Origin: Escherichia phage 121Q
DNA: 64,000 nucleotides
Reading direction: 5' to 3' (one strand)
Sequence record: NC_025447.1
Of this stretch, positions 1-25,000 are shown in pieces. How positions within the stretch are numbered: the first letter of the stretch is position 1; each line of letters opens with the position of its first letter. The notes beneath the pieces are model-generated. The model was not told the origin of the DNA, searched no databases, and worked only from the letters and a program-made list of their open reading frames with translations. Position numbers and translations under genes: made by a program.

Positions 1-3000
1 AGCACTATTAAGTGTTGAGCTACCAGAAATATTAGCACTAGAAGCAGTAATAGTTCCAGAATCAACTTGTATACCACCAGCAACAACCTGAATTCCACCA
101 GCATTAACTGTTAGTTTACCAGCAGTATTCAATGTATTTGAAACTGTTGTTGCACCAGTTAAAGTTGTAGTGCCAGTTACACCTAAGTTACCAGAAATAG
201 ATGGACTACCTGTAATGTTACCAGTAGTTAGTATCAAATCAGTACCTACGGTAGTGGAGCCAGTACTTTCTAGTGTTACACCGACGATGTTTGCAGAACT
301 TAGGTTAATAGTACCATCAACAGTTAAGTTACCTTGAACGGTTGCATCACCTAGAGAAGTTAATGTCTTCACAGACACATCAGTTGTGCTAAGATCAATA
401 ACACCCGCAGTTAGTGTTCCAGATACTGCTAAATTACCAGTAATCGCGGTATTTTTAGTAATGGATACATTTTCTGCCGCTGAAGTAATAGAACCAACAG
501 TAAGTACACCACCAACAGTTGCGTTATTAGTTACATTTAGAGCAGTTCCAACACCAGATAGTGTTGCTGACCCACCAGTAATTGCACCTGAGATTGAAGC
601 TGTTGCTGCTGAAACATCACCAGAAACTACTGCATTTGTTGCATTTAGAGCAGACACTGTAACTTCAGTACTTTGAACTTTAGGTAGAACGTTGATACCT
701 TCTGCACTACTAACTGTAATAATACCAGTACTTGTTAGAGATTTAACAGATACATCAGCACCACTTAAATCAACTGTACCAGAAACAACAAGATCTCCAC
801 CAATATTTGCTCCAGCGGTAGTAGTAATGGATTTTGCACTTACATCAGTTGTGCTCAAATCAATTGCACCTGGTGTTACTGTACCAGAAACTGTTAGGTC
901 ACCAGTAATAGATGTATTATTGGAAATAGATACACCATCAACGTTACTAATTGTTGGGGTTTCTACAGAAACTGCTTTAACTTTACCTGAAGAAGTTACG
1001 TCAGCTACGGTAGATGCACCAGTAACATTCAAATTAGTAATATTTGCAGTTGTTGAACCAAGGGTTGCAATAGTTGCATCAGTACTTTGAAGTTTAGGTA
1101 GAACACTACTAATTGTGGATTCATTACTAACAATTGCACCAGTACTAGTTAAAGATTTGACAGTAACATCAGCCGTAGTAAGATCTACTGTACCATTAAC
1201 AGTTAGGTTACCACCAATAGTTGCACCAGCAGTAGTAGTAATGGATTTAGCATTAACATCAGTTGTTGCTAGATCGATAGAGCCTGGAATAACTGCACCA
1301 GTAACAGTTAGGTCACCAGTTACATTTGTATTATTGGAAATAGTGACACCACTTGCATTTGAAATGGTTGGGGTAACCAACGATGCAGTTGTAGTTTCAC
1401 CAGTTACAGTTAAAGTTGACCCAACTAGAACAGATGAGCTTGAGTAAATTGTACCCAAATTAGCAGATCCGGTAACAGTTATATCATCAGCATTAACAGT
1501 AGTTGCCGTTATGGTAGTACTATTAAGTACTGGAAGTACGTTAGCATTAACAAGATCATTACTTTTAACAATACCAGAAGTAGTTAATGATTTAACATTA
1601 AGGTCGGCTGCTGATAAATCAAAAGAGCCTTGAACTACTAAATCACCACCAATAGTTGCACCAGCAGTAGTAGTGATTGATTTAGCATTAATATCGGTAG
1701 TGCTCAAGTCTAGAGAACCAACAGTTAAGCTACCAGTAATATCAACATTTTCTGTAAAGTTAGTATTACCACTAATAGTTGGTGCAGTCAGAGTTGTTGC
1801 ACTAATATTAGTACCGTTAATTGTTTGCCCACTTACAGTTCCACTCGCAGTGATAGTAGGGGCCGTTACTTCAGTAGATGCACTAATTGTTGGTGCAGAT
1901 ACAGAAGTTGTACCAGTAATAGAACCAGAACTTACTGAACCAGCGGATAATGCACCAGAAAGAGTTGCAGTTGTACCAGCAATATCACCAGTAACAGTTA
2001 GTTTAGCACCCACGGTAGTGTTACCAGTACTTTCAAGTGTTGCACCTTTAATATTTGCTGCCGCGACAACAGAATTAGGTGTTAGATCCTGCCCACTAAC
2101 ATCAACAGTTAGTCCAGTTACTGTTCCAGTAAATTCAACATCATTAAGAATTGCTTTACCACCAACTTGTAGGAATGGTGTACCTGGAGCTTGTGTTTCG
2201 TTACCAGTAATAGTTAGGTAATCTAGTTTGTTTAGACCGTTACCAGTAATACCATAAGTGGAAAGAGAAGCGTTACCGAAAGTTGCTGTTTTAAGAACGT
2301 TCAATGTAGAAGGAGAAACGACTTCTGATTGAACTTCGTTAGGTAGAATAACTGTTGGGCGTTGACCTGGTGCAGTATATCCAAAACCTAGTTTCACTGC
2401 CGCATCTTGACTATTTTGACCTAAGCTGATAGCTTTAAAGGATGCAGTACTGTTATAACCAGTAATATTAGAACCAAGAGTAACACCACCAACTAATGAA
2501 GTTACACCAGTAACGTTCAAAGATACTGCATTAATATCGTCTAGTTGGAACGTTCCACCAAGAAGACCAGAAACATTAATGTTATTAAAATTAGCAGTAC
2601 CAGTACTTTCGATATTTGGAATAGTTGCAGTTCCGGTTACTTCAAAGTCAGCAACTTTAGTTTTTCCTTTTTGAACTTCTAATAGTGGTGTGTCTGGTGA
2701 TTGTGTATTGTTACCAGAAACTGTTAGATAATCTAATTTGTTTAGACCATTACCAGTAATACCATAAGAAGATAATGACGCATTACCAAAAGAAGCAGAG
2801 GTCAATACTGTCAAGTTTGCAGGTGACATTAGCTCGGACTGAATTTCGTTTTGTAGAATAACAGTTGGGCGTTTACCAGGAGCAGTGTAAGGGAAGCTTA
2901 ATCTGAAGGTTTGTGATTCAGAGTTAGAACCAATACGAATGTCTTTAAAAGTAGCAGTACTGTTAATACCAGTTACGTTAGCACCGAAAGTTACTGCACC

Positions 3001-3612
3001 TTGTTGGTTAGATGCACCAGTAACGTTCAATGTTACTGCATTTAAGTCAGATAGATTAAACTCACCACCAAGTGTACCACTAATTGTCACATCGTTAAAT
3101 GTAGCAGTACCAGTACTACTAATATCTGTTGTACTTACATTAGTAATTTCTGCGGTATTAGCAGTAATTTTATCAAATGCAGCAGTAGTCCCAACATCAG
3201 CAGTAATATTACCTTTAAATGCTGTTGTTTCAGCAACTTCTAAGTTTTTAACTTTAGTTGCTTGTAGAGTGGTTGTACCAGCAGTTTGTGTAAAATCAGA
3301 ACCAACTGATACAGTACCGTTAAAGGTAGCGTTTGAATTAATTGTTGCTGTATCAGACCCGACAACTGCACTACCGATTGTAGTATTACCCTCAACACCA
3401 AGACCACCAGAAAGTGTTGCTTTGCCACCTACATCTAAAGTAGATGTAATGTTGGCAGTTGATGATTCAATGGCAGTAAAAGTTGCATTTGCAAAAGTTA
3501 CAGTACCATTTACAGTTAGGTTATTGTTGAAAACAGCATTTCCTTTGACTAAAAGATCCTTACCAACCGTACCAGCACCAGTAATATCTAAGTCAGTTTT
3601 TATTGAGTACAT
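1..3612 (-). CDS. Long tail fiber protein, partial (3' end lies beyond the window start); Gly/Thr/Ser/Asn-rich with internal tandem repeats
   Basis: Minus-strand ATG at 3610-3612 preceded by GGAGG; my translation begins MYSIKTDLDITGAGTVGKDLLVKGNAVFNNNLTVNGTV and stays open as far as I read. Absent from the ORF track, presumably because it has no stop inside the window. The plus-strand ORFs 386-3682 are its antisense frames. Confidence 0.6.
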   Translation of the reverse strand, partial: MYSIKTDLDITGAGTVGKDLLVKGNAVFNNNLTVNGTVTFANATFTAIESSTANITSTLDVGGKATLSGGLGVEGNTTIGSAVVGSDTATINSNATFNGTVSVGSDFTQTAGTTTLQATKVKNLEVAETTAFKGNITADVGTTAAFDKITANTAEITNVSTTDISSTGTATFNDVTISGTLGGEFNLSDLNAVTLNVTGASNQQGAVTFGANVTGINSTATFKDIRIGSNSESQTFRLSFPYTAPGKRPTVILQNEIQSELMSPANLTVLTSASFGNASLSSYGITGNGLNKLDYLTVSGNNTQSPDTPLLEVQKGKTKVADFEVTGTATIPNIESTGTANFNNINVSGLLGGTFQLDDINAVSLNVTGVTSLVGGVTLGSNITGYNSTASFKAISLGQNSQDAAVKLGFGYTAPGQRPTVILPNEVQSEVVSPSTLNVLKTATFGNASLSTYGITGNGLNKLDYLTITGNETQAPGTPFLQVGGKAILNDVEFTGTVTGLTVDVSGQDLTPNSVVAAANIKGATLESTGNTTVGAKLTVTGDIAGTTATLSGALSAGSVSSGSITGTTSVSAPTISASTEVTAPTITASGTVSGQTINGTNISATTLTAPTISGNTNFTENVDITGSLTVGSLDLSTTDINAKSITTTAGATIGGDLVVQGSFDLSAADLNVKSLTTSGIVKSNDLVNANVLPVLNSTTITATTVNADDITVTGSANLGTIYSSSSVLVGSTLTVTGETTTASLVTPTISNASGVTISNNTNVTGDLTVTGAVIPGSIDLATTDVNAKSITTTAGATIGGNLTVNGTVDLTTADVTVKSLTSTGAIVSNESTISSVLPKLQSTDATIATLGSTTANITNLNVTGASTVADVTSSGKVKAVSVETPTISNVDGVSISNNTSITGDLTVSGTVTPGAIDLSTTDVSAKSITTTAGANIGGDLVVSGTVDLSGADVSVKSLTSTGIITVSSAEGINVLPKVQSTEVTVSALNATNAVVSGDVSAATASISGAITGGSATLSGVGTALNVTNNATVGGVLTVGSITSAAENVSITKNTAITGNLAVSGTLTAGVIDLSTTDVSVKTLTSLGDATVQGNLTVDGTINLSSANIVGVTLESTGSTTVGTDLILTTGNITGSPSISGNLGVTGTTTLTGATTVSNTLNTAGKLTVNAGGIQVVAGGIQVDSGTITASSANISGSSTLNSA
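676..1800 (-). repeat. Three tandem copies of a ~400-bp coding repeat inside the long fiber gene
   Basis: Blocks starting near 676, 1088 and 1520 share long near-identical stretches (for example accagcggtagtagtaatggattttgcacttacatcagttgtgctcaaatc versus accagcagtagtagtaatggatttagcattaacatcagttgttgctagatc); boundaries approximate. Confidence 0.5.
2219..3210 (-). repeat. Two tandem copies of a ~480-bp coding repeat inside the long fiber gene
   Basis: Copy 1 about 2219-2700 and copy 2 about 2729-3210, both starting taatcta(g/a)tttgtttagacc...accagtaataccataag; encoded units share ...PGxRPTVILxNExQSExxSP...FGNASLSxYGITGNGLNKLDYLT.... Boundaries approximate. Confidence 0.5.
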
Positions 3613-3706
3613 TTATACCCTCCATTATAACCTTGTTAATATGTATATATTTAGTTTTATTATGCTGTTATCCAACAATTAATATGTTATTTGACAAAAG
3701 CAAATA

Positions 3707-3749
3707 TAATAAAAACCAGACTTATTTAGAACAAGTCTGGTTAATTTTT
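3707..3749. terminator. Bidirectional terminator hairpin between two fiber genes
   Basis: Stem CCAGACTT/AAGTCTGG (3716-3740) flanked by an A-run and a T-run. Confidence 0.55.
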
Positions 3750-4646
3750 TTACTTACCAGAGATGACAATCTTACCACTGAAAGAAATATCAGAAGTGAA
3801 GATTACATCACCAGTACTACTAATTTGTGTATCAGTCACTACCAATTCAAATGGAGATGACGAAACACTCCCAGGTGTTTTATTTGCATAAATTGAAATA
3901 TACAAATTATCTGGTGTTTGATTGTGTTCAGATGCAGGAATAGTGATTGTAAAATCACCATCACTAGAAACCCAATCTGCTTGGTTTACCAATTTACTAT
4001 AAGGTACTGTCATTGTTGTTGCTCCTATAATGTTTACTTTAACACTTGCATAATCTGTGATTTGACCAATCACATCAATTGTTATATCCCCAATACCACT
4101 AACTGTTACTGTGGTTTGGAATACTGATTCCAATGCAACATTACCTGGGTCACCTTGTAGTTGGATCATAATATCAGAACCTCTACCATGAACTGATTCT
4201 GGTAGTGTGTAAGTATAATGATCAGTAGTATCTGGCACTAATGTAAATGCAGAAACAGGAACTATTTCAGTAGTTACATATGAGCTATCAGTCCCAGGTG
4301 AGCTACCTTTAAATGGTTTCCAAATACCAAGATCTTTAATATAAATTTGAAGAACATTAGTACTATCAACCAAAAAGTAAACGTCACCATCTAGACCGAT
4401 CGAATCGGATGGTGCTGTTGTTCCACGTAAGATACCAGAACTACCACCACCACTGTGTGCGTTTAAATATCCCAATGTAACCAAGTGTGTGTTTGCAGTT
4501 GGTTCACCTGCTGAAATTGGAAGAAGTTGTGTTCCTGAGTAGTTTTGAATTTGCACAACACTACCATTTGTGGTAATCTGTGCACCATTCTTCCCAAGAA
4601 TGAAGGACTTCTTCATGGTTCCTTCTAAATTAGAAAAAACTGCCAT
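3750..4646 (-). CDS. Receptor-binding / tail fiber protein with N-terminal module shared with the 4663-6804 gene
   Basis: 298 aa; N-terminus MAVFSNLEGTMKKSFILGKNGAQI nearly identical to the neighbouring gene; GGAG ribosome-binding site upstream; terminator hairpin immediately downstream. Confidence 0.55.
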   Translation of the reverse strand: MAVFSNLEGTMKKSFILGKNGAQITTNGSVVQIQNYSGTQLLPISAGEPTANTHLVTLGYLNAHSGGGSSGILRGTTAPSDSIGLDGDVYFLVDSTNVLQIYIKDLGIWKPFKGSSPGTDSSYVTTEIVPVSAFTLVPDTTDHYTYTLPESVHGRGSDIMIQLQGDPGNVALESVFQTTVTVSGIGDITIDVIGQITDYASVKVNIIGATTMTVPYSKLVNQADWVSSDGDFTITIPASEHNQTPDNLYISIYANKTPGSVSSSPFELVVTDTQISSTGDVIFTSDISFSGKIVISGK

Positions 4647-4662
4647 TTTAATATAATCTCCT

Positions 4663-6804
4663 TTATGGTAGGGTTATGTAAGTTACGGGTTGGGCAGCTT
4701 TTAATGCTGCACCAGCGGCAGTTGCTGTTATGATAGGATCTGCAATATCAATTCTATATACGTTGTTTACAACATACACTGCACGAGTTATATACGTTCT
4801 CAAATCACCACCATTTTCACCAGCACCGGATATAATGATCTCAGTACCAGCAGCTTTTGCATATTGGTTTTCACCCCATGACACACCCAATGCTTCTATG
4901 TATGTTTGTCCTGCTACCGTTTGTCTAATTGTGTCATATTTTCCGAAAAAAGAACCACCAACAGTTACAATATATTTTCCACCCGATTGTTTATGAATAA
5001 TCGTGCCTTCAGAGAAATAGCGTCCCCCAGGAAAAGTATCGTATGGAATATAATATTGCTCAACTACAGGTATCAGTACTGGGCCACGGTGACCTGTACC
5101 ATCGATTGCAGTTGTAACTTTAAAGTTATTAGATGATTGGTCTATTCTGTCTACATACATTTTAGAAAAACTATATTTTGAAACATTACAATCATCTTGA
5201 ACAACACAGTTAGTCCAATTAGTATAAGTATATTTAGAGCGAGTATAGATACCACCACCTTCGCCTTCGGTAGAGAGGTGTTGACCAATTACATCTAATT
5301 CTTTAGTTCTAATATCACTAAATTTAGATGATGATGGCAAACCACGCCAAAGGATTTTAGAACAAGTGATATTGCTCAATTCTGTATTATTTAACCAATT
5401 ATCAGAACCGGAAGTATAAACAAGTATAGAAGACTCTGGAATATAGAGATTAGAAATTTTAAAGTTTCTAGGTGGTCCAGCAAAACGACCAGAAGTTACA
5501 CCCCAGTTTATTGAAACCATTCTATTTGTGATAGAAGGATCATTAAGCAAATGACCAGTCAACCCATCAATAATGAATTCTTTCGAACCATAAGTTATAA
5601 CACCAGCAGTGGTTAATCCAGTACCAACAGAAACTAAAGATGATGGATAAACTTCATTATTAAGTATTTTAAAGTCCATTCCTAATTCAACGTGTATACA
5701 TTGTCTAACATTATATAGTCTGTTATTTTTAATAACAAAGTTTCTGACATATTGTGTATCTGGTGCATCTAAACCATAAGGACCAGAACCAGCAACGCCA
5801 ATACCAATGCCCCAGTTTGAAAGTGGGATTGGAGCGTTAGAACCATCAACGTTTTCAATTACGTTTCCTTCAATCACAAAACCATCAGGATAATGTGAGT
5901 TAATTACGTTTAGTTCAATTGCATCACCATAGATATCATGAATATGGTTATATGAATATCTACCAACCTTCATTTTCTCACCAGTACCTTGTTGAAGAAC
6001 ACCATACTTACATTGGGTCATTTCATTAAAGCAAAAATCTATTGTTCCTGGTTGTGTCATACCTTGCATTAAAAATGCAGCAGTACTTGTGATGTTTATA
6101 AATTTATTAAAATAAAACTTACCATCTCCACCGAAGAATTTTAAATAACATCCAGTAAGTGTTGCAAATTGTATTTGGGAATTAATAACAGATACCATAG
6201 TACCACCGTTACCAGTAATAGTTCCCCCAAACCAAGTTACATCTTCTAGGTATATTGCAGTTTTGATACGGTAATTACCACCAGCCTGAATTTGGATTTT
6301 ATTTTCTTTAGCATAAGCAGCACATAAATTTACAGCAGCAGTGTCATCAGTTTCGCCATCACCTTTAGCACCAAATTCTTCTGGTGTTATATAAAACTGG
6401 GCCTGTTGAACTGTACCTCCAGTAATAAGTCCGATGAAATCACCACCATTTTTACTGGATAGAACTTTTTTATTAATGTATAATGATTTTACCCATGTAC
6501 CATTACTTTTTGCAAAAATATCAACAATACCATCTTCATCAATTTGAAAATACGTATTATTGTTCTTTCCTACATCATCGGTAGGGGGTACAACACCAAA
6601 TAATGCATTAGGGTTATCTTCAAGATATTTTACGTTAACTGCTGAATTAGGGTCAGATGAAGTTCCTACCTTCAGTGGTAGGAACTGTTCTCCTAGATAA
6701 TCTTTTATAGAAACTGAATCATTGATAAAATTTATTGAAGCACCTTTTTTCCCCAATATGAATTTGGGCTGCATAGTTCCTTCAAAATTAGAAAATACTG
6801 CCAT
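4663..6804 (-). CDS. Tailspike-like protein with pectate-lyase-type beta-helix motif (putative polysaccharide depolymerase)
   Basis: 713 aa; shared N-terminus MAVFSNFEGTMQPKFILGKKGASI; GDGETDDTAAV motif (encoded 6340-6363) typical of pectate lyase 3 / tailspike beta-helix domains; GGGAGG ribosome-binding site. Confidence 0.6.
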   Translation of the reverse strand: MAVFSNFEGTMQPKFILGKKGASINFINDSVSIKDYLGEQFLPLKVGTSSDPNSAVNVKYLEDNPNALFGVVPPTDDVGKNNNTYFQIDEDGIVDIFAKSNGTWVKSLYINKKVLSSKNGGDFIGLITGGTVQQAQFYITPEEFGAKGDGETDDTAAVNLCAAYAKENKIQIQAGGNYRIKTAIYLEDVTWFGGTITGNGGTMVSVINSQIQFATLTGCYLKFFGGDGKFYFNKFINITSTAAFLMQGMTQPGTIDFCFNEMTQCKYGVLQQGTGEKMKVGRYSYNHIHDIYGDAIELNVINSHYPDGFVIEGNVIENVDGSNAPIPLSNWGIGIGVAGSGPYGLDAPDTQYVRNFVIKNNRLYNVRQCIHVELGMDFKILNNEVYPSSLVSVGTGLTTAGVITYGSKEFIIDGLTGHLLNDPSITNRMVSINWGVTSGRFAGPPRNFKISNLYIPESSILVYTSGSDNWLNNTELSNITCSKILWRGLPSSSKFSDIRTKELDVIGQHLSTEGEGGGIYTRSKYTYTNWTNCVVQDDCNVSKYSFSKMYVDRIDQSSNNFKVTTAIDGTGHRGPVLIPVVEQYYIPYDTFPGGRYFSEGTIIHKQSGGKYIVTVGGSFFGKYDTIRQTVAGQTYIEALGVSWGENQYAKAAGTEIIISGAGENGGDLRTYITRAVYVVNNVYRIDIADPIITATAAGAALKAAQPVTYITLP

Positions 6805-6818
6805 TATGACATCCTCCC

Positions 6819-7970
6819 TTAAATATTATCTTGAATCGGTTGGATAGGAGCTTGCCATGAAAGAGTACAAATAATTTCCATTTTTCCATAAGGACTGTTG
6901 TTAACAGAATCGTTGAATACACATGAAATAATTTCATCAACATCGGATGCTGCATGATTAGTTTCATTAACAATAAAACGCATCTGACGATTGATATCAA
7001 AGTAGGAAGTTGGTGCAATTACCGTCCCGCCAATATCTTCTTGTGCTTCACCACCAAAACGTACAAACATATCAGTTACTGGAAGAGAATAAGGTTGTAT
7101 AACGTTTACATCAATATTAGAAACTACATATCCAGCAGGACATGTACCAATAACTAATAGTGCGTTAGTCCATGAGCTATCTATGGTATTTCTAATAGAA
7201 ATTGTATCTTTACCTGGTGCACCTGGTTCGCCTTGTATACCTTGAATACCTTGCTGGCCTTCTTTACCACGGAATAGAATACCCTCACTCCACTCTTTTG
7301 AAGGAGGGGTAGTTGTAGTTACTTCATCAACATAATATAGTTTTCCATCAGTGTTGTTATAAAAACAATAATCAACTGGAAGATTTTCAATACTTGGAAA
7401 TTGATCACCACTGCTATCAATATGGAAACGACCACGCGGACCTTGTTCACCACGGAAAGGTATACCATCACTCCAAGTAGCAGTTACACTTTGATAGAAA
7501 TAAAGTTTACCATCTTGAGTATTATAAAATGTATAGTTATTAAAAAGACCAGTTGTTGGGAAAGTAGTTCCAGCACTATCAATGTGGAACGGCTTACCCG
7601 CTTCACCCGTATCACCTTTACCAAACTCAACACTAATCCATGTACTTGTCGGATCTTGTGCATCATTTGATTTAAAGTATAGAGTACTGGTATTGTTAGC
7701 CAAGCTTAAGTAGCACCACCCAAGTGGTTCACCAACTTTAAATTGTTCGGAAGGAATTTCAAAACCAATCTCATTAGGATAAAAGTTTTTACCATTCTCG
7801 CCATTCTGTCCTACAACAAGACCTAAATCTTGAATTGTGTTATCTGCATAGGTTACAATTAAATGCCCAGCACCATTAATAACTAGACTTTTGATGCCGG
7901 AGTTATTACATGAACCATTAAATGAAATTGTCATAATATTTCCCTTGTATGAGTTAATGTCATATACCAA
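6819..7970 (-). CDS. Tail fiber protein with collagen-like Gly-X-Y triplets
   Basis: 383 aa; GEQGPRGR and GKEGQQGIQGIQGEPGAPGKD collagen-like runs, each preceded by a duplicated ~60-aa unit (FHIDSAGTTFP... and FHIDSSGDQFP...). Confidence 0.5.
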   Translation of the reverse strand: MVYDINSYKGNIMTISFNGSCNNSGIKSLVINGAGHLIVTYADNTIQDLGLVVGQNGENGKNFYPNEIGFEIPSEQFKVGEPLGWCYLSLANNTSTLYFKSNDAQDPTSTWISVEFGKGDTGEAGKPFHIDSAGTTFPTTGLFNNYTFYNTQDGKLYFYQSVTATWSDGIPFRGEQGPRGRFHIDSSGDQFPSIENLPVDYCFYNNTDGKLYYVDEVTTTTPPSKEWSEGILFRGKEGQQGIQGIQGEPGAPGKDTISIRNTIDSSWTNALLVIGTCPAGYVVSNIDVNVIQPYSLPVTDMFVRFGGEAQEDIGGTVIAPTSYFDINRQMRFIVNETNHAASDVDEIISCVFNDSVNNSPYGKMEIICTLSWQAPIQPIQDNI

Positions 7971-8044
7971 TATTTATCAGTACAAAATACATTTCGTTAT
8001 CATTAATAAATAAATGAAAGTTCACTACTAAAAGGGCTTAAACA

Positions 8045-8542
8045 ATGGCATTAAGATCAAAAGACTTTCTCTTCAGAAGAAAAACAAAAGATGGTTCATG
8101 GCAAGATTTTCCTGAATCTGATAGCTGGTATCCAGCTAACTTGGATTATCACTGGAATGAACAAACGTTACCACTAGCAAGTGGTGGCTACTATGGCTGT
8201 ACTACAGGTTTACATACGATTTCATTTACACTACGTAATTTTATTGGTAGAATTTATGTGTTAGCTACATTAGCTAGTAATCCTACTGATGATGATTGGT
8301 TTCCAATTAAATTCACTGAAAGTTGTAATTATTATCTTGAATTTACTGATATGGTTATTTTAAATCCAAATGGTGGGGATTTAATTAGACAACAAGGAAC
8401 TACCGGAACATTTGCTGAAACAGTAACTGGTAATTTTACTTACCTTAAAGTTGGTATAGACCGTGATTATATTAGTAAGTATCCATCAGATGTCCAAAAA
8501 AGTTTAGCTGGGAAGTTAGAACAAATTTTAATTAACTACTAA
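8045..8542 (+). CDS. Hypothetical protein (first gene of plus-strand island)
   Basis: 165-aa ORF with AAGGG ribosome-binding site; no recognisable motif. Confidence 0.4.
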   Translation: MALRSKDFLFRRKTKDGSWQDFPESDSWYPANLDYHWNEQTLPLASGGYYGCTTGLHTISFTLRNFIGRIYVLATLASNPTDDDWFPIKFTESCNYYLEFTDMVILNPNGGDLIRQQGTTGTFAETVTGNFTYLKVGIDRDYISKYPSDVQKSLAGKLEQILINY

Positions 8543-8551
8543 GGATTAGAA

Positions 8552-9160
8552 ATGAAATTAGAAACAGAACAACCAAAACTATTTGTTAAAGGTCATGTCC
8601 TAATTACTGACGTTACTGATCCATCAAATCAAAAAATCGTTTTAGATAAATCTAACGCTATTCACCCTGAAAATATGAGTACTGCCATTGCTAATGCGTT
8701 AGCATATAATCAAGACAGTACTGGTATTCCTATTGGTTCTATTAGCGAGATGCGTTTTGGTAATGGTGGTACAGTAGTTTTAAGTACTGGGCGTGTTACT
8801 TATAAAAAACCACGTGTTACATCATTTGGTGGTTTGTATTCACAAACATATTTGAAAAAAATCAACCCAAGAATTACGGCTGGTATCGATTCACAATATA
8901 ATAATATTACGACTGTTCATATACCAGGTCAGTCCTATACTGATATTGTATGTATTTGTACTTTAGGCTTAGGTGAACCATCAGATCAAGGTGTGAGTTC
9001 AGGGACAAGCATGGACGGAACATATGTGTTTGATGAATTGGGATTATACACCGATGGTGATAGTGGTATTCCTTTAACACATATTATTTTCCACCCAGTT
9101 GAAAAAAGTGCAAACCGTGTTTTGCAAATTAAATACACTGTGCGTGTACAACTACAATAA
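8552..9160 (+). CDS. Hypothetical protein
   Basis: 202-aa ORF tightly packed after the previous gene; GGA ribosome-binding site. Confidence 0.4.
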   Translation: MKLETEQPKLFVKGHVLITDVTDPSNQKIVLDKSNAIHPENMSTAIANALAYNQDSTGIPIGSISEMRFGNGGTVVLSTGRVTYKKPRVTSFGGLYSQTYLKKINPRITAGIDSQYNNITTVHIPGQSYTDIVCICTLGLGEPSDQGVSSGTSMDGTYVFDELGLYTDGDSGIPLTHIIFHPVEKSANRVLQIKYTVRVQLQ

Positions 9161-9172
9161 TGGGGTCATATA

Positions 9173-10273
9173 ATGAGTGTTAACTATACAATTTATCGAA
9201 GTAATGGTAGTGTTTATGCTACCATTCCAAATAACGTTATTTTAGGTCCAAATCAGCCAGGTAGTAACCCAGTTCCATTAAATTTAGTTGGTAGAAACAA
9301 AGTAAGTTATGGTCAAGCATGGAATGAAAACTTTTTACATTTAGTTGAAAACTTCAGTTCAGCTTCAGCACCACGTGGTAACGTAAATGGTCAACTTTGG
9401 TATCGAAATACTGGAAGTACTGGTGAGTTATTAATATCATTAGTGGATAATGCTAGACAACCAGCAGATATGGTAAGTGAAGCGGAATGGGCTTCTATTC
9501 CAATGATAACCGTATTCAACACTGTACCAGATGGTGAAAACAGTGTTATGGGTCGTATGGTATTAACCAGCAATGGTGATTCACTTCGTGTTTTGATGAA
9601 AAACAAAGAATGGCGTGAAATTCAAACATCTCGACCAGAAAACAAAGAATATACATCATTATTAGATATTAACTATGATAATGGAAAAAAATACATAGAG
9701 TTTACACAAAGTAACAGTACTAAACCAATTGCGTATTTTAACTTAGGCGGTACTTCACAAGTAGATACAAATAACTGGACAACATTAACTAATGGTACTG
9801 GTGTATTTGAATTTGGTAGCAACTATTTCTATGAATTAAAAATTATGATTAGAGAAGTAAATGATTCTTCTGGTGAGATAGTTTCTCTTCCATATAATTC
9901 AAAAACCTTTTTTATAAAAGGGCAATTCTATGTAGATAATCAAGGAACTTTTGTTCCTGGTTCGGTTGGGGCAAGTCAAATGCCAGACCCACGTAGGATT
10001 ACACAATTAGAATCCATAAAAGATGTTATTACCAGTAGTCGCCCAAACTGGGACGTAAATATTGTTATTAATGGTGTAGATCCATCTATCCCAAATCCTA
10101 ATGGAACATCTAAAGCTGATTATGAAAATTGGGTTATCAATTCTCTAAACTCAAATAAAAATTTAGGTTTTCGAGTTGATGGTAGCATTAGTAATCTAAC
10201 TGCTGGTGAATCCGTTAAACTACAAGCATCCGTGTTGTTAAATATTACAGGTATTCCGATTATTGGAGTATAA
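9173..10273 (+). CDS. Hypothetical protein, possibly fiber or baseplate associated
   Basis: 366-aa ORF, Asn/Ser/Thr/Gly-rich like the neighbouring fiber proteins; followed by a terminator hairpin. Confidence 0.4.
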   Translation: MSVNYTIYRSNGSVYATIPNNVILGPNQPGSNPVPLNLVGRNKVSYGQAWNENFLHLVENFSSASAPRGNVNGQLWYRNTGSTGELLISLVDNARQPADMVSEAEWASIPMITVFNTVPDGENSVMGRMVLTSNGDSLRVLMKNKEWREIQTSRPENKEYTSLLDINYDNGKKYIEFTQSNSTKPIAYFNLGGTSQVDTNNWTTLTNGTGVFEFGSNYFYELKIMIREVNDSSGEIVSLPYNSKTFFIKGQFYVDNQGTFVPGSVGASQMPDPRRITQLESIKDVITSSRPNWDVNIVINGVDPSIPNPNGTSKADYENWVINSLNSNKNLGFRVDGSISNLTAGESVKLQASVLLNITGIPIIGV

Positions 10274-16050: not shown

Positions 16051-19000
16051 TTACTTAACTAATAATATATTTTTAATATCATTACCACTAACTTGTAGAC
16101 TATCAGTGTATACTGAAAGATCTATAGTGTAACTATTTTGTGTGTAACGTTTTAACATATCATAATTACCTAAATTAATTCCATTGAAAGAATATGTAGT
16201 ATTAAGTTTAAAATCATGTTCTGCACTATACATTACACCACGGAGTAAATTATTTGCATTTCTAACTTCAACTTTTTCATATCCAATCGATATAATATCA
16301 TTCATGTTTGCGGCTGAACCGGATAAAACATTATTTCTAATACTATAAGGACTTATTGATTTAGGTTGAGAAACATAGGTTGTATTTTCTTCACTAATGG
16401 TTGTGATGTTAGTAACAGTACCACCAACAACACCGATATACATACCGTCAACCATTGGGAATCCATAAACCCATATCCCTTCATTATTTCTAAACGGTTG
16501 AATAACACTTGAATCATATTCGATAACGTTGATTTCTAAACTATCAGTCATTTTAGTTCTTGCCAATTCACTAAGAACTCCCGCACCCGTAATTGGTAAG
16601 TTATAACCGTTATCGATAGTAATTCCATCAACATCAAATATTTCATTAGAGATTATCCAAACGTCAACGTCATCTGGTGTTATTCCGTCATTGTACTTAC
16701 CACCATTTAAAGTAGTATCGTAGAAAACATCATAATTAATTACATCAATGGTGTAATTTCTATTTTGTTCATACAATTTAATACCATTCTTGACAAATTC
16801 AGGGTCAGCAAATGTTCTAACACGAACAATGTTCAATGCTAGAGGCTGTACTGGCTCATTTTGTTGTGCAAGAGTGATGTTATCATAACGGAGAACTGCA
16901 CCAGTACTCTCATCAATCAATTCAATCGTTTCCTTACCTGTATTTCTTACAGTGAATAGGATCGGAGTTGTATTGTTTTTGATGTTAGATACACGCAAGA
17001 TTGTTTCCCATGTGTGATTTTGATATCTCACAAAATCTTCACCATCAGGAGTGAAAATCATCACCTTATCACCATCAGATAGGTCATTGTCAACTATTTC
17101 TGCTTCAGTTAAGCTATTAATAGATCTCACACGATAGAAATATTTTTCATCAAACTTCGATGTTGTTTTATTAATATCATTTTCAATCTTAGCATATGAA
17201 GGAATACTTACAATTGCTTCTGTATGTTTATATGGATTGATAATTGCCATACCTTCAGTTTGATATCTGCTGTTATCACGTAATTGTACAAGAGATACAT
17301 TGTCAAACCCATATCCATCAACTGTAAATCTAATTTGACCTACATCACGCCCAGAAGGGTTTATGTCAGATATATCCACAATATAAGGATCAACTTCATC
17401 ATCTTTAACTTCCCATTTTATTGAAGAAGTTTGAGATTCCAATGCTAGGTTATCAAATGCATTCATATCATTGAAGTACTTAGCTTCAGTAATACTATCA
17501 AGTATATATTGATAATCAGAATACATTGGATTATTTTGATCTAGTGGTAAATCATCAAGATTTATTTCAGCTAGTTCAACCATTTCACCATTTGTGATAA
17601 AATAATCTTCCATGAAATCATCAATACTTTGTTCATCAGGTATACTTTGATATACACCGTTAACATTTAAGTAAACATATTTTCGTGGAATCATTGTAAT
17701 TGCATAGATATCAATTGGGGTCTTACTAAGAATCTCTTCAGCTTTTTCGTACTTATCAGTAGCGTCTTTGTCGAATAACCCTCTCATACCTGCTAATACG
17801 TGAATAGCATCAGTATAGAAACGGGTATCACCACCTACTTCATCATAACGATAAACATATACACCATACTCAACTTCAAGTTTAACTTTTACTTCATAGT
17901 CTGATGCGTCAGGATTTTTATCTTTAATTAATGAAATGTATTTTTGATACAATTCACTGCTTATTTCAAAATATCCATAGTTATAATCATTACTAGAAGA
18001 AAAGCCTAATGGAAGTCTAGTACTAGGATTGTCATTATAAGTAAGTCCACTAAATCCACATCCAACTTCATCGTGAATTTTCTCATCACTTATATCTTTA
18101 TAAAGTTTCAAACGGTTTGCCAATGTGTTATACTGAACATATTGTCTAAGGTCAGTAAACATATCGTTATGCGTTGATTCTTTATAAACACGTTCCAATG
18201 TAGCAGTGAATTCATCAGTTGCTTCTAAATCTTCCGCATGGTCTTTATACCACTGGTTAACGCCATATGCTGTTCCTAGTGTTACATCCAATTCTGGATA
18301 GTAGATTTGCATTTGATAAGCAATAAGAAGATCGAAAGTTTCTTCACTATATTCTGGGAAAGAATATATATAACGTTGTAATTCATAGTTACTAACAGCA
18401 TCCTTTTCATTGGATTGATATTTGTTATTAACACTTACTAATTCATTTATGCTTGCCAAATCTTCATTTGGTTTACACTGAATATTATCATAATGCATAA
18501 TAATATCAATTTCTTGGAATCTTCTATTTGGTGTAACGAAATCACTTGGTAGTGAACCTACCTGTTCCCATTTTTGGGTAATTTCATTAAATTGAGCGTA
18601 CTCATAATCCCAAATATCTTTTTCAGTTTTGATCCAAGAACCGTCAACGAAAATATATCCATTAGGATCTAAATCATTACATAGACCTTTTATTAAATCA
18701 TCATCAGATGTCTTTTGCTCTATTTGTGAACGAATTTTAGTTCTATAAGGTTTAACTTCTTCAAAATATTCAACAATTTGATTAATCAAATTATCGTTTG
18801 AATAGTTTTGAACTAATGATTGTTCCAAACCAACAATATAGATATATGATGTTTTAAATACCCAATCCACAACACTTTGTTCAACATGTACATATTTGAC
18901 CATATCAAAAACAATTTCGCTTTGATGTAAATCGAAAGAATTTTTGAGTAAAGCTAGTGCTTTACGAACGTTGATTTCACGATTGCTTAGTGATCCATTA

Positions 19001-22000
19001 TCATTATGAACACTATAATCTGCGTAAAGCATATCATTGAGTTCAACTGTACTGTTTTCACGACCAATCGCTTTCCAATAAATTGAATCGCGTGATTGTG
19101 ATTTAATATACAATGTCCAAATGTTTTCACTATCGGTAACTCTGATAATATCGCCAACTTGGTAGTTTTTAGTATTAGCATCTTCTAAGCTTGACTCTTG
19201 TGTATAAGTCGTGTTACTATCATACCCAACATCATACCAATCAGCATATGACCAGTACTGAGTCATGTCCAATGAAGTTCCCAGTGATTCAACATAATCA
19301 GATTGTTTAATCATTTTATGTTGACCCTCACCTTTGTTCTCTAACGTTATAGTAACAACACTACCCGCGTTTGCTGGACTATTCATTAACTGAATATATC
19401 CATTTTCGTCGAAGTGAATAAAATAAACAGCACTAGAAGTTAATGGATTTGGTAGATATCCACTAGTACTTAAAATAACAGCGTCATTTTCTTTAAATTT
19501 ATCACTTTCAACTGCAATAACTAATTCATTATTGTAAGACAATACACGGAAAGAAACTTCATTCGGATTAACTTCAGTGGTTTTAACATTAAACACATCT
19601 TCCATAACAACACTATTAGTGGTTATGTTTTGTGACCTATAATAATTATTAGCACTTTCTACAAAGTTTCTACGAGCTTCTATAACATTTTGGAACCAAG
19701 TTTTGTTTGAACCTAAACCGTTATCAACATCTGGATATAATAAATTAATCACAGAACCTGATTCAGTTGTTTCTTGACCAATTAGTGAGTTCCACATTGA
19801 ATCCCAAATTAGTGGGTTAAAGTTATAGCTGTCACCTTCTTTACATAGTTGATACTGGTCATGTTTAACAACTTCAGTACTATCCATGTAATAAGAAACA
19901 GTTAAAATACTGGTATCATCATTCACTTTAAATTGCATATTACTAAGAATAAACGAGTTTTCATTGATTGGAGCGAACCAAGGAATGTTTAGCTGTGTTG
20001 GATCTTTAATAATACGAGCAATGTCAGTACATGATTTTGTTCTGGTATGTAGTGGTGGTACATAAATTGTATCACGTACCCAGAAATAGTATTTTGTCAC
20101 ATAACTATCAGTTGAACTATCATATTCCAAAAATGTACTATAATTATCTTCAAGTGCAGTTCCACTTGGTAGATACATAGTATTATTTTTGTTTTTCTTA
20201 GCAACATCTTTACAGTATTTGTCCCAGTTATATGGCTCAACTGGTGAACAAACCCACTCTAACACATCAATTGTACTATGTGGTAATAAACGACCCCAGT
20301 TGTAACGTTTGTATTCATTGGTTGCATCAATATCAACATTACCGTCTGCGTCATAAATTGCACGAGTATAATCCAAATAAAATGCAGTGCTAGTGTTCCA
20401 CCATACTTGACCAACTTTATCAGCACCCCAAGCCTGGATTAACTCTCCATTACTATTATACTGTGCAGGATCAACTGGTGAAGTATATGTTACGTTTTGC
20501 ATAGCCGCACCTGGAATAACACCATTAATTGGGTCATAAACGTTTAGATATAGCTCAGTAATGTTAGTACGTTCATCATATGTCGTTGGACGATCAAATA
20601 AAGTACTTTGTGGTGCTTTAAAACTATATTTCTTGTCAATGTAAGCTTGACGTTCATCAGTACTGGCAAAACGTGATACATAACGATACAAACGTGGACG
20701 TGTATCTGGATCAGTAAATTCAATATCAATAGAAGTGTCAAATGGAACTACCATAACTTTAGGATCAGAACCAGCAGTATAATATTGACTTTCTACTGTT
20801 AAAGTATCTGGCATAAAGTTAGTTTCATCAACAAAATAATAATAATCACCATCTTCAAGTGGTACATTATCAGTTAAAGTTACTTTACAAAATTGTTCAG
20901 CATACACATCGGTATTTTCAATAGGTGTTATAGAAACCATTTGCACATTAGTATCAACCAATTCAAAAATGTTCCACAAACCATTACCGTCTTTAAACAT
21001 CCACACAGATTCAGGATTTTCACCTTTACCATTAGTATAAGTTATGCGGTCATTATATGCAGTACTGAAATCTTTTGTTGTGTACGATACTTCATCCAAT
21101 GTTACTGGACCAATATCTGGAAGTTGGATGTTTTCACTTCTTCCACTACGCATTGGGAATGAGAACTTACCATTTGGACGTGTAATCCAACGAGGATCTT
21201 TACCCTGCTCACCGAAGTATACAATATGATTACCATTACCATTTGAAGTTGCATTTACATCAAAAGAAACCATTTGAGGTTGTTGTTTAAATTGGTCATT
21301 GATTAGTTTAAATTGAAGGTTTTTCTTACCATCAATATTACCATATGTACCAATTTTAAATGCCCATTCTTGTAATGCTTTATATTCATCAGTGTCATAT
21401 GATTTAGAAACACGAAGTACACGTTCTAAAACTTGGTTAGTACCTTTATCGTGAATGAATCCTTTATAGAAATCAACACGACTAACATCACTGCTAATCA
21501 TACGCTGTAGATAATCACGAGATTGATAACCAATCAAATGGTTTGACAACTCTTGTAATTGTACATCACTTACTGGAGTTTCACTATCATAATAATGTTG
21601 GAAATCCGACACTAATTTTTCAAATGATGGTAGTGTTCCAGCTTCCAAGATAATAAATCCAGGAGCTTGTAGGCGACCAGTCCATGAACCAGTAATATAT
21701 CCATACATTTTAATTAGTTCTTGAATAGAACCATATGTTGGCTGATAAATGTAATCACCAAAAATAGTTTTATCATCAAAAATAACAGCATGTTCATATG
21801 AACACAAACTTAAACGAATCAATGCAATGCGTTTATTAGATTCTAAAGTTCTAACAGTGAAGATATTTCCAATACGAGAAGTTTCAATTTCATATTGGCG
21901 AATACCTTGGTTATTATCATCAAGTAATGACCATACACCACCATTATTTTGCGTAATAGATTGTACTGAACCAAAGTCTGCCCCAAATTTAGCGTTTGCA

Positions 22001-25000
22001 GCACTTGGGGTACAAGAAATAAATTCACCAGTTACTAGAGAATTCTGACTCCAGATCACGAAATCTTTAGCAATAGTGTTCCAATCTTGTTGAGCACCAC
22101 TATCATTTACATCTTCAAAAATCCAACCATGTTCTTTAAGATATTCACCATATCCACAAATAAAAGTATAAACTTCTTGGTAACTATTGAAAACTTTACC
22201 ATATTCAATTGAAGCTTCAGACTTCCATTCATTATAATGAACAACATTACGGTTTTCCAATTTAAGAGTTACTTTTCTACCATTTTTTACGGGAAGTTTA
22301 TATTTAAATTTAGCACCAACTAGATCATATCCATCAATCTGATATGCACTACCATTCCAAGTAATTTTGATCGCACTCATTTGCTCATCACGGATATTAT
22401 TAGAACGAACAAGACCAATGGTTTGGTTTTCTTGTGAAATAAGACCGAAAGATTTAGCATTGAATGTTAGCTGATCTGCTTTAGTAAATCCTCCAATTTT
22501 ATGACCAACATTTATATAAGAAGAACGAACTACATCCCCATACTTGGTGGTAATATTTTTATTTTGATACATCAAATGGTCACTTACAAACATTTGATAA
22601 CCAATTGTTCTTGTGCTATTTTCACCATGAACTACTGTATTTTTATCAAAATTAATACGCTTACGTGTATCACCATAAAGGAATTGTGAACCATCAGTGA
22701 ATACTTCTTTTAAGTTATCATTGCGGGTATCCCAGAAATAGTTAGCAAATTGTGCTGGTTTAGCTTTATACAAAAGCATCATTTGGTCATATGCAAACAA
22801 TGTAGTGTTCATGTATGTAAATTCCATGTCACCCATATCACCATATGTCCAAGGTTCTGCTCTATGATTTAAAGATCCAGACACTAAACCTAAAATTTCA
22901 GGTGCAATATATTCAACCACACAAATATCAATACCAGAAGATGTTTTATTTCCAGTTTTTGTAATTTTGAATGGCTGTACACCAAATCTTTTATATTTGT
23001 CATATTGACCACGACGATCACCAAATAAAATAGTTCCAGTACTGCTATCGCCAATAGTTCCGTCAATATCCCAAAGACCACTAGGAACTAAATCACCTTG
23101 CTCATTCATAACAAGTGCTTCATATACATATACAACATCACTATCACGTTCACCAACTTGAACAGCCGTTGGTTCGTATTCTTGGTTCCACCAAGTTGGA
23201 CGTTGTGTAAAGCCAAACATTTCCCACGGATGGGTAGCTGGGCGATATGTACCATATTGGTCAGTGTAAATGGCACGCCATGAACCACGTGCAGGAATTT
23301 CAGTACTTTGACCATTAACTACATAATAAGTGCCAGTATAGTTCCAAGTTCTCCAATTGTTAGGATCATAATCATGTGTACTATTACTGATACCATTAGT
23401 TGCGGTGAAGTTAATGTATCCACGTAGTAATAATGTTTGTTTCTCTTCAGCACTATATTCAGTTTTAGTGAAATATGGTGTAGGGAAAAGGTCATCACTA
23501 TTCAATACTGGTACGTAATCAACATCTTTGAATTTATTATCAATACTATTAAAAATTCTATTTTCTAATTCATATACAACATCATCCATTTTATCAACAC
23601 CATTGATAACACGGTATGCTTTGGAAATAATACCAGTATGACTGATGTTATAACAGCTTGGTTTACTACCAGCAGTGAGGAATGTCGCTTTTTCTGGTAC
23701 ATATGCTTGAAGAATACCTAAGAACTGTGGTGTTGGTGGTATAAATGCACGAATGAATCCAGAAGTACTTCCAACATTATCATAATAGAATGGGAATGAA
23801 CTATCACGTCCCATATTAATAGTAGTTAAAATTGCATCAACAATGTTTGCAGCACTATTTTGTAAAAAGTCTGATGGATTTTCATCATACATACGAAGCA
23901 TTTGTGTATTAAATTTATTAATGAATCTAAAATATTCAGATTGCATAAACATAGTTGCTTCAAATAAATCAATATCTTCATTTGCAGTATGTGCCATCAA
24001 TGGAAGCATAGATGCTTCATTTTGGATAATTTTAGTACCTACGCCATTATTAACCAATCCTTTAGCCAAACGTTCTTCATAGTCATTGAAATCATCAGAA
24101 GAACCACGTGTAATGTTCTTTTGAATAATATCCTGAAAATGTAAAGTGTAGTCACCTTGGTTAATGTATATAATATTGGAATTGTATGGGTTATTTTGTA
24201 AGTTAATTGGAACTTCATATGCACCTAATTCTTTATTAGGAGTTACAGTACTGCTATAAGTTCTAATTTGAATAACTGAATCTTCATCCAAATCTACAGT
24301 GCTATCTAAGGTGATACTTTGAACTTGACCTTTTGATACATTTTTGGTATATTTTGATACATCAACACCATCAACAACAACTTCAATTATGTCAGAATCA
24401 TTATCTAAAACTTTTTGTGCTAATTCGAATGTGTGGTCATATTTTACAATCTGAACACCATCACCAGTGATTGGATGCCAGTCTAGATAAGTTTCGCGGT
24501 CTGCTTTATAGTACTGATAGGTTCTATCAACTTCAATAACATATGCATACATACCATCAACTGGTTCTTTAAAAACTTCCATATCATAAACAGTACTGAA
24601 TACACGATACATATCAGTACGTTTGACTTGTGGAGTTTGTTTTACAAATTGTTTAGAGTACTCTTCTGAACGAACCCAATCGGTTTGAAGATTCATTTCA
24701 TTATTTTCATCAATAATGTTATAATAGTATAAACCATCAATTTCAACTTCTTTTCCAAGATGGTCATAGGTATAACGTTGGGATTGTAAAAAGTTTTCAT
24801 AAATGTAATAATTATAATCACCAAGTTCAATGTTATATCCATATACACTATCAGTTGCATAGTTGTAATTTATTTTAAAACCAAACAACTCTGAACCTTT
24901 AAAGTTACTGGATGGATATGTAGTACTGTTGTCAAGTTTGATACCATTACGATCATAAAGTTGGAATTTAGGGAATATGTTAACACTAGTTTTTGATTGT

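What the first reader, a model, noticed from the sequence alone, without database searches (positions are those of the whole stretch)
3750..6804. Two adjacent receptor-binding proteins share the same N-terminal ~25 aa but have different C-terminal domains
Both genes begin MAVFSN(L/F)EGTM..FILGK.GA.I (encoded 4572-4646 and 6730-6804) and then diverge completely: one is a 298-aa protein, the other a 713-aa beta-helix protein. A conserved anchor with swapped distal domains is the hallmark of modular receptor-binding proteins, implying two alternative or co-displayed receptor specificities.
Basis: seen in the sequence. Interest (0 to 1): 0.6.

Follow-up and report, generated by a model that had tools for sequence, protein, structure and literature searches.

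The report
Shared anchor on two phage tail proteins
Two neighbouring tail genes of a giant E. coli phage begin with the same ~105-residue attachment module; one gene is a colanic-acid-degrading spike that carries this module in place of its usual front end, an ordinary but clear case of how phages mix and match host-recognition parts.

Summary
The window comes from a Rak2-like jumbo myophage of the Asteriusvirus group (99.6% identical to G17, Sharanji and PBECO4).

- **Similarity.** Gene A (3750-4646, minus strand, 298 aa) and gene B (4663-6804, minus strand, 713 aa) share about 105 N-terminal residues, not 25. Identity is 38% (BLASTP E=1e-19), and 18 of the first 25 residues are identical.
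- **Module structure.** The shared region has two parts. N1 (aa 1-66) sits at the exact N-terminus in 26 of 26 cluster representatives that have it, in proteins of 99-1366 aa with beta-helix, sialidase-like or fibre bodies. N2 (aa ~68-112) is one copy of a widespread fibre repeat.
- **Gene B is a chimera.** From about aa 106 it is 57% identical to Justusliebigvirus colanidase tailspikes and matches the solved phi92 gp150 structure (PDB 6E0V), which carry a different front end. B is an extra gene found in PBECO4-type phages.
- **Gene A is a conserved core protein.** Its orthologues are virion proteins (found by mass spectrometry in CBB and fENko-Kae01), it has two Ig-like domains, and it always sits next to the giant fibre gene. 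A receptor-binding role is unproven.
- **Expression.** Both genes have ribosome-binding sites and are under purifying selection.

This is a new member of a known kind. The docking partner and virion incorporation of B remain untested.

The parts
3750..4646 (-). Gene A: 298-aa conserved virion protein (phrog_10468). Layout: N1 + N2 + two Ig-like beta-sandwich domains.
   Evidence: ORF. phrog_10468 match at E=1.5e-100. 73 full-length homologues of 284-309 aa. AF2 model with mean pLDDT 81. Orthologues found in virions by MS: CBB_227 and ENKO_256c.
4449..4646 (-). A, N1 sub-module (aa 1-66): invariant N-terminal arm MAVFSNLEGTM, a three-strand meander, and an 'EPxxxxHxVTxxYL' neck-like motif.
   Evidence: Residues 1-20 are about 90-95% conserved across 51 orthologues. 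N1 is at the exact N-terminus in 26 of 26 representatives that have it. The neck motif weakly matches trimeric fibre junctions in PDB chains, E=0.05-2.
4311..4445 (-). A, N2 sub-module (aa 68-112): one unit of a widespread fibre repeat (G..P....G..GD.Y......Y.K..G.W).
   Evidence: Profile positions 65-112 hit 2-19 repeats per protein in long fibre proteins. 492 instances in 122 of 147 representatives. pLDDT about 85.
3753..4289 (-). A, C-terminal half (aa 120-298): two Ig-like beta-sandwich domains. The last 8 residues are about 92% conserved.
4663..6804 (-). Gene B: 713-aa chimeric colanidase tailspike homologue (N1 + N2 + colanidase body).
6487..6804 (-). B, anchor (aa 1-106; N1 = 1-66, N2 = 66-106). 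It is a paralogue of the A anchor and lacks the 5-residue Gly-rich linker of A.
   Evidence: BLASTP E=1e-19. N1 HMM E=1.6e-26 and N2 HMM E=2.8e-11. B keeps 17 of the 21 residues that are invariant in the A-family anchor. dN/dS is 0.10-0.12 against orthologues.
4666..6486 (-). B, colanidase body (aa 107-713): beta-helix plus C-terminal domains.
   Evidence: 57% identical to the W22 colanidase tailspike aa ~200-801. PDB 6E0V phi92 gp150 at E=1.8e-235 over aa 96-712. phrog_6117 matches aa 90-711.
6819..7934 (-). Upstream 'tail protein' (phrog_13565, about 372 aa from the Met at 7934). It is the first gene of the apparent three-gene unit and the invariable upstream neighbour of A in Rak2-like phages. 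It is a candidate docking partner, by inference only.
   Evidence: Synteny. Abundant in virions: phAPEC6 gp253 at 65.6% coverage and CBB_228.
3714..3742 (-). Terminator-like hairpin (13-bp stem followed by a T-run) 8 nt after the stop codon of A. It closes the tail-protein/B/A unit.
   Evidence: No terminator-like site lies between the three genes.
1..3612 (-). 5' part of the giant fibre gene (1841 aa in SHEFM2K). It has no N1/N2. It is lost together with the Ig-like domains of A in RaK2.

Best explanation
The first ~105 residues of A and B form a portable virion-attachment module, probably trimeric.

**Module layout.** N1 consists of an invariant N-terminal arm, a small beta-meander and a neck motif. 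N2 is one fibre-repeat unit.

**Gene A.** A is the ancestral bearer of the module in Rak2-like jumbo phages. It is a conserved structural protein whose Ig-like C-terminal domains are functionally tied to the adjacent giant fibre.

**Gene B.** B arose when a colanidase tailspike body of the phi92 gp150 type, circulating among E. coli myophages, was joined to a diverged copy of the module. The resulting gene sits between the tail protein and A. The anchor lets the phage mount a colanic-acid depolymerase on its tail, next to or instead of A, at the same or a paralogous socket. This would add capsule or slime penetration to the adsorption apparatus.

**What is shown:** the homology, the module boundaries, the chimeric origin, intactness and purifying selection, co-transcription signals, and virion presence of A orthologues.

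**What is inferred:** trimerisation, docking to the baseplate, the identity of the socket, virion incorporation and enzymatic activity of B, and the link between A and the giant fibre.
For: - A and B are 38% identical over about 105 aa (E=1e-19), then unrelated.
- B keeps 17 of the 21 residues that are invariant in the anchor of 51 A orthologues, despite the low overall identity.
- N1 is at the exact N-terminus in 26 of 26 representatives, in proteins of 99-1366 aa. Their bodies include beta-helix with a Peptidase_S74 chaperone, Beta_helix, and BNR/sialidase with CBM5/12.
- A metagenomic tailspike outside the Rak2 synteny also carries N1 (L023).
- B aa 106-713 matches colanidase tailspikes that have a different 190-200-aa N-terminus and the phi92 gp150 structure 6E0V, which is described as a colanidase tailspike in PMC11126041.
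- B is absent from GAP32, CBB, EJP2, PHA46, fENko-Kae01 and RaK2, where the tail protein is followed directly by A.
- RaK2 keeps only the 115-aa module. It lacks the Ig-like domains of A, the giant fibre and GAP32_219 together.
- A orthologues are in virions by MS.
- Residues 1-7 have pLDDT below 50 in the monomer model although they are about 95% conserved, as expected for an arm that is ordered only in a complex.
- Both genes have ribosome-binding sites, tight spacing and a single terminator after A, and dN/dS is 0.07-0.36.
Against: - There is no direct evidence that B is in the virion. The phAPEC6 proteome (62 proteins) lists gp253 and gp256 but not gp254 or gp255.
- RaK2 gp061 is not mentioned among the MS-detected proteins.
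- No solved structure or significant fold match identifies N1 or its partner.
- The B anchor is as far from its co-resident A anchor (42-50% over N1) as from unrelated spike anchors (39-47%). The origin of the copy, by internal duplication or by import, is therefore unresolved.
- An N1-bearing spike exists without the 'tail protein' neighbour (L023), so that protein need not be the socket.
Confidence: 0.65

Rival explanations
1. Serial rather than parallel attachment. The shared N-terminal module is an oligomerisation or branching element through which B binds A, or forms mixed trimers with it. A alone would contact the baseplate or giant fibre, as in the branched tailspike complexes of CBA120 or G7C.
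Against: In known branched systems the docking partner carries a different (T4 gp10-like) acceptor domain, not a copy of the same domain. No such domain was detected in A. N1 occurs in single-copy contexts such as L023 and in all Rak2-like phages that lack B. Its primary partner therefore cannot be another N1 protein.
Confidence: 0.15
2. B is not a virion component. It would be a soluble colanidase released at lysis, and its N-terminus a functionless leftover of the recombination that created the gene.
For: B is not listed in the phAPEC6 virion proteome. A metagenomic PBECO4-like contig carries a B with an in-frame deletion of the catalytic core, which suggests dispensability.
Against: The anchor of B is under purifying selection as strong as the enzyme body: dN/dS is 0.10-0.12 against 0.07-0.22. 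It retains 17 of 21 family-invariant residues. The closest homologue, phi92 gp150, is a tailspike. A-type orthologues, also missing from the phAPEC6 list, were found by MS in two other phages, so that list is incomplete.
Confidence: 0.12
3. The N-terminal resemblance is due to chance, low complexity, or a nucleotide-level signal such as a shared translation-initiation element, and not to a protein module.
For: The first 33 nt are identical at 30 of 33 positions.
Against: BLASTP gives E=1e-19 over about 105 aa. HMM matches reach E=1e-26. The same module is found in 231 cluster representatives. Third-position identity at conserved residues is not elevated (11 of 18 against 12 of 23). The motif is conserved in distant proteins with unrelated DNA.
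Confidence: 0.02

Closest known systems
Modular phage receptor-binding proteins with a conserved N-terminal particle-binding domain and exchangeable C-terminal bodies (T7 gp17-type fibres; Klebsiella phage anchor/branch RBPs, Latka et al. 2019, PMC6872550; CBA120 TSP1-4; RaK2 gp526-534, PMC10253068)
   Same: A lineage-specific N-terminal module is joined at a sharp boundary to unrelated distal domains. The same enzymatic body occurs with other anchors in unrelated phages. Paralogues are adjacent in the genome.
   Different: The anchor here (N1 + N2) is not the T4 gp10-like, CBA120 D1/D2 or T7 gp17 N-domain by any significant match. It has no Pfam family. One of the two bearers (A) is a conserved core protein rather than a variable RBP.
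Phage phi92 gp150 colanidase tailspike (PDB 6E0V) and Justusliebigvirus/Phapecoctavirus colanidase tailspikes (phrog_6117)
   Same: B aa 96-712 aligns over the whole solved construct at E=1.8e-235. It is 57% identical to the W22 colanidase tailspike.
   Different: Those proteins have an unrelated N-terminus of about 190-200 aa. B replaces it with the Rak2-type N1-N2 module. Activity of B has not been tested.
phrog_10468 'virion structural protein' of Rak2-like jumbo phages (GAP32_221, CBB_227, ENKO_256c, RaK2 ORF061w)
   Same: A is a full-length member (E=1.5e-100). It has the same position between the tail protein and the giant fibre, and its orthologues are confirmed in virions by MS.
   Different: No function has been published for this family. 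RaK2 has only the 115-aa anchor stub.

Membership tests
Modular RBP pair with shared anchor | Paralogues share a significant N-terminal domain and diverge completely afterwards | tested here: met
   BLASTP E=1e-19 over aa 1-109 of A and 1-104 of B, with no similarity beyond
Modular RBP pair with shared anchor | The distal body occurs with other anchors elsewhere, and the anchor occurs with other bodies elsewhere | tested here: met
   The body of B is found in W22 and phi92 with a different N-terminus. N1 is found on beta-helix, BNR/sialidase-like and fibre proteins of 99-1366 aa
Modular RBP pair with shared anchor | Both proteins are incorporated in the virion | tested here: inconclusive
   A orthologues were detected by MS in CBB and fENko-Kae01. 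B has never been reported, and neither A nor B is in the phAPEC6 list
Modular RBP pair with shared anchor | The anchor physically docks to a baseplate or adaptor site | not testable with these tools
   Multimer prediction and structural maps were not available. Supported only by the exclusive N-terminal position and the conserved arm
Modular RBP pair with shared anchor | Both distal domains bind host receptors | tested here: inconclusive
   B is homologous to a colanidase. The Ig-like domains of A are conserved in phages of at least seven listed host genera and give only generic fold matches
Colanidase tailspike (phi92 gp150 / phrog_6117) | Full-length homology of the beta-helix body to the characterised enzyme | tested here: met
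   PDB 6E0V at E=1.8e-235 over aa 96-712. phrog_6117 at E=3e-264
Colanidase tailspike (phi92 gp150 / phrog_6117) | Degrades colanic acid | not testable with these tools
   Requires an enzyme assay
T4 gp10-like / CBA120 TSP head-domain branching adaptors | Recognisable gp10-like, D1/D2 or XD fold | tested here: not met
T7 gp17-type N-terminal tail-fibre adaptor | Homology or fold match to the gp17 N-domain | tested here: not met
phrog_10468 (Rak2-like virion structural protein) | Full-length profile match and conserved synteny | tested here: met
   E=1.5e-100 over aa 1-298. Synteny

The most novel reading that the evidence does not exclude
N1 (MA[VI][FY]SN.xGT[MF]...[IL]GK.G...) is an undescribed, widely used plug for a conserved tail socket in Rak2-like jumbo phages and in other uncultured phages. 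Under this reading, any fibre or depolymerase body fused behind about 66-105 residues gets mounted on the virion. The PBECO4 lineage would show the socket accepting two different occupants at once: A, which holds the giant fibre, and a colanidase. That would give a defined handle for reprogramming the host range of jumbo phages.
Probability: 0.3. Interest if true: 0.5.

Novelty: new member of a known kind. Interest (0 to 1): 0.35.

Why it matters
Adsorption by Asteriusvirus and other Rak2-like jumbo phages is poorly understood. Published work on RaK2 fibres does not cover this locus, and I found no paper noting the shared N-terminus.

A defined anchor with a precise boundary at about aa 105-112 has three uses. 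It says where a foreign depolymerase could be grafted onto these phages. It explains how a colanidase was recruited from unrelated coliphages. It also flags a small N-terminal family, absent from Pfam, that marks tail fibres and spikes in metagenomes.

The principle itself, conserved anchor and swapped body, is textbook phage biology, so the finding is confirmatory rather than surprising.

Tried and rejected
- Single-sequence AF2 of A was useless (pLDDT 32). It was repeated with a 51-sequence alignment.
- The search for homologous proteins with the 116-aa fragment returned only 4 hits. The full-length query worked.
- I thought by eye that the upstream tail protein carries two N2-like repeats. 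Two HMMs, one of them built from 492 repeat instances, did not support this, so it was rejected.
- A profile of N1 against PDB sequences found only a short 'PTxxxHAxTKxYVD'-like neck motif in phage hyaluronidases and fibres at E=0.05-2. This suggests a trimeric fibre junction but does not establish homology.
- Scans of viral and metagenome contigs with N1 peptide patterns returned mostly Rak2-like orthologues and one new architecture (L023). The alignment of 17 diverse N1 sequences was too divergent for pattern design.
- A search for isolated-phage relatives of the long N1-bearing fibres (P0108) found none.
- The literature gave no evidence on virion presence or activity of B.
Full report
**Source and gene map.** The window is from a Rak2-like jumbo myophage of the PBECO4 group of Asteriusvirus. 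Bases 3000-9000 are 99.6% identical to Escherichia phages G17 and Sharanji and 99.5% to PBECO4. The minus strand carries, in order of transcription:
- a 'tail protein' (6819-7934/7970, phrog_13565);
- gene B (4663-6804, 713 aa);
- gene A (3750-4646, 298 aa);
- a terminator-like hairpin (3742-3714);
- a giant fibre gene that starts at 3612 and runs off the window (1841 aa in SHEFM2K).

B and A are preceded by GGGAGG and AGGAG in gaps of 14 and 16 nt. No terminator-like site separates the three genes.

**The observation.** Both proteins begin MAVFSN(L/F)EGTM..FILGK.GA.I, as reported. Formal alignment shows that the similarity covers A 1-109 and B 1-104, at 38% identity and E=1e-19, and then stops. 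The first 25 residues are the most similar part, with 18 of 25 identical and 71% nucleotide identity. The remainder is about 45% identical in DNA. Synonymous positions are not unusually conserved, so the constraint is on the protein. tblastn finds no third copy in the window. PBECO4-type genomes hold exactly two copies and other Rak2-like genomes hold one.

**Neither gene is a remnant.** I compared both genes with their orthologues in WPEC5 and A4. Every segment, including the anchor of B, has pN far below pS, with dN/dS of 0.07-0.36. B keeps 17 of the 21 residues that are invariant in the anchor of 51 A orthologues.

**Anatomy of the shared region.** A profile of the region was searched against 1.84 billion cluster representatives. 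It found 231 proteins at E<=0.001 and split the region in two.
- N1 covers profile positions 1-65. Among the 147 representatives held locally, 26 have N1, and all 26 have it at the exact N-terminus. These proteins range from 99 to 1366 aa. Twelve have N2 directly after N1 and 14 do not.
- The bodies behind N1 include a pectate-lyase-like beta-helix with a Peptidase_S74 chaperone (P0092), a Beta_helix domain (P0095), and BNR/sialidase-like propellers with CBM5/12 in fibres of about 1200-1366 aa (P0108, P0122). The list also includes the colanidase body of B and the Ig-like domains of A.
- A 684-aa tailspike (phrog_19988) with N1 lies on a viral contig next to anaerobic ribonucleotide reductase genes and unrelated fibre genes. 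That context is outside the Rak2 synteny.
- N2 (A aa 68-112) is one unit of a repeat found 492 times in 122 of those representatives. The median is 5 copies per protein and the maximum is 16. The repeat is often interspersed with collagen Gly-X-Y tracts, and no Pfam family matches above its cut-off.
- The AF2 model of A (51-sequence alignment, mean pLDDT 81) shows five regions: a disordered arm (aa 1-7), three short strands (14-35), a low-confidence Gly-rich linker (54-69), a beta-hairpin unit (73-111), and two Ig-like sandwiches (124-297).
- The arm is the most conserved part of the family, at about 95% column identity.
- The end of N1 ('EPtxxxHxVTxxYL') weakly resembles junction motifs of trimeric phage fibres and hyaluronidases in PDB sequences, at E=0.05-2. 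This suggests a trimeric fibre but does not prove it.

**B is a chimera.** tblastn of B against 50,697 phage genomes shows that aa 96-712 are 57% identical to the colanidase tailspikes of E. coli myophages of about 145-150 kb (W22, PaulScherrer, ESCO9, outra). They are 27-37% identical to many other spikes. Aa 1-104 hit only the A orthologues of Rak2-like phages, at 33-40% identity. In pairwise alignment, B ~106-713 corresponds to W22 ~200-801, and the first ~190 residues of W22 are unrelated. The same region matches the solved structure of phi92 gp150 (PDB 6E0V) at E=1.8e-235. PMC11126041 describes that protein as a tailspike colanidase.

B is an extra gene. In GAP32, CBB, EJP2, PHA46, fENko-Kae01 and RaK2 the tail protein is followed directly by the A orthologue.

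The anchor of B forms its own cluster, with 55-77% identity among Asteriusvirus sublineages. It is 42-50% identical to the Asteriusvirus A anchors, 33-45% to the A anchors of other genera, and 39-47% to the metagenomic spike anchors. An old internal duplication with fast divergence and import from another N1-bearing phage are both possible.

**A is a conserved core protein.** A has 73 full-length homologues of 284-309 aa in phages whose listed hosts include Escherichia, Salmonella, Klebsiella, Cronobacter, Erwinia, Yersinia, Serratia, Pectobacterium and Xanthomonas. Its C-terminal half is orthologous throughout, with a median identity of 44%, so it is not swapped. Fold searches return only generic Ig-like matches. 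Orthologues are virion components by mass spectrometry: CBB_227 with 5 peptides and 32% coverage, and ENKO_256c.

In RaK2 and K64-1 the orthologue is a 115-aa ORF that ends directly after N2. The Ig-like domains, the giant fibre and the following small virion protein are all missing together. The next gene is the orthologue of GAP32_218. This joint loss is the basis for inferring that the C-terminal half of A works with the giant fibre. It also shows that N1-N2 can stand alone.

**Most likely mechanism.** Three independent events place a module boundary at aa ~105-115: the divergence of A and B, the B/colanidase junction, and the RaK2 truncation. Two further observations point the same way. 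N1 is found only at N-termini, and its most conserved part is an arm that the monomer model predicts as disordered. The best reading is that N1-N2 is a trimeric attachment module that plugs tail proteins into the virion. B would then be a colanidase recruited onto the tail of PBECO4-type phages through this module.

Whether A and B share one socket or use paralogous ones cannot be decided here, and neither can the identity of the socket. The upstream tail protein is the obvious candidate by synteny and abundance. However, an N1 spike exists without that neighbour.

No data show B in virions. The phAPEC6 proteome lists the flanking gp253 and gp256 but neither gp254 nor gp255. That list is demonstrably incomplete for A-type proteins.

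**Comparison with known systems and verdict.** The system works like the well-known modular receptor-binding proteins described for T7-type fibres, Klebsiella phage RBPs, CBA120 and RaK2 gp526-534. Its anchor matches none of the known anchor folds at a significant level. The papers I could search on Asteriusvirus, RaK2, CBB or phAPEC6 do not mention this locus or the shared N-terminus.

I rate it a new member of a known kind.

Noticed in passing
L028 6575-7984 (metagenome contig OEQX01000005.1): A PBECO4-like contig (98-99% nucleotide identity) carries a 469-aa version of B with an in-frame internal deletion between about aa 158 and 385 (the beta-helix catalytic core). The breakpoints lie at short repeats DDTA(A/G)V. 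The anchor and C-terminus are intact. It could be a natural deletion variant or an assembly artefact.
   Followed up: partly
L002 9001-9348 (RaK2 ORF061w); also K64-1: The RaK2 orthologue of A is only the 115-aa N1-N2 module. The Ig-like domains, the giant fibre and the small DUF4376-type virion protein are deleted together. The next gene is the orthologue of GAP32_218.
   Followed up: yes
window 4311-4445 and 6487-6609; proteins P0085-P0223: N2 belongs to a very widespread fibre repeat of about 45 aa (G..P....G..GD.Y......Y.K..G.W). It is present in up to 16 copies per protein, is often interleaved with collagen Gly-X-Y tracts, occurs also in collagen-like proteins of giant viruses (BFVD hits), and matched no Pfam family above its cut-off.
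   Followed up: partly
L006 (phAPEC6, MK817115) 6751-9805: The GenBank record of phAPEC6 has no CDS annotated over the intact A and B genes. The numbering jumps from gp253 to gp256, and both proteins are absent from the published virion proteome.
   Followed up: partly
L023 1172-9433 (IMGVR_UViG_3300007747_000141): In an uncultured phage contig, an N1-bearing 684-aa tailspike lies directly after nrdD/nrdG-like genes. It is followed by a 193-aa protein and two 918-aa paralogous fibre proteins, all of which end in a shared 'AFPVSTG.PS..GT..W' C-terminal motif.
   Followed up: no
window 16051-26052 (-): A 3333-aa ORF lies downstream in the tail/baseplate block. It is presumably the counterpart of the 381.88-kDa virion protein gp245 of phAPEC6. 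It was not examined.
   Followed up: no
window 6819-7970 (-): The longest ORF of the tail protein starts at a TTG 12 codons upstream of the Met used in related annotations. The phrog_13565 match begins at residue 13, so 7934 is the likely start. The protein has a short collagen-like Gly-X-Y stretch (aa ~235-253).
   Followed up: partly
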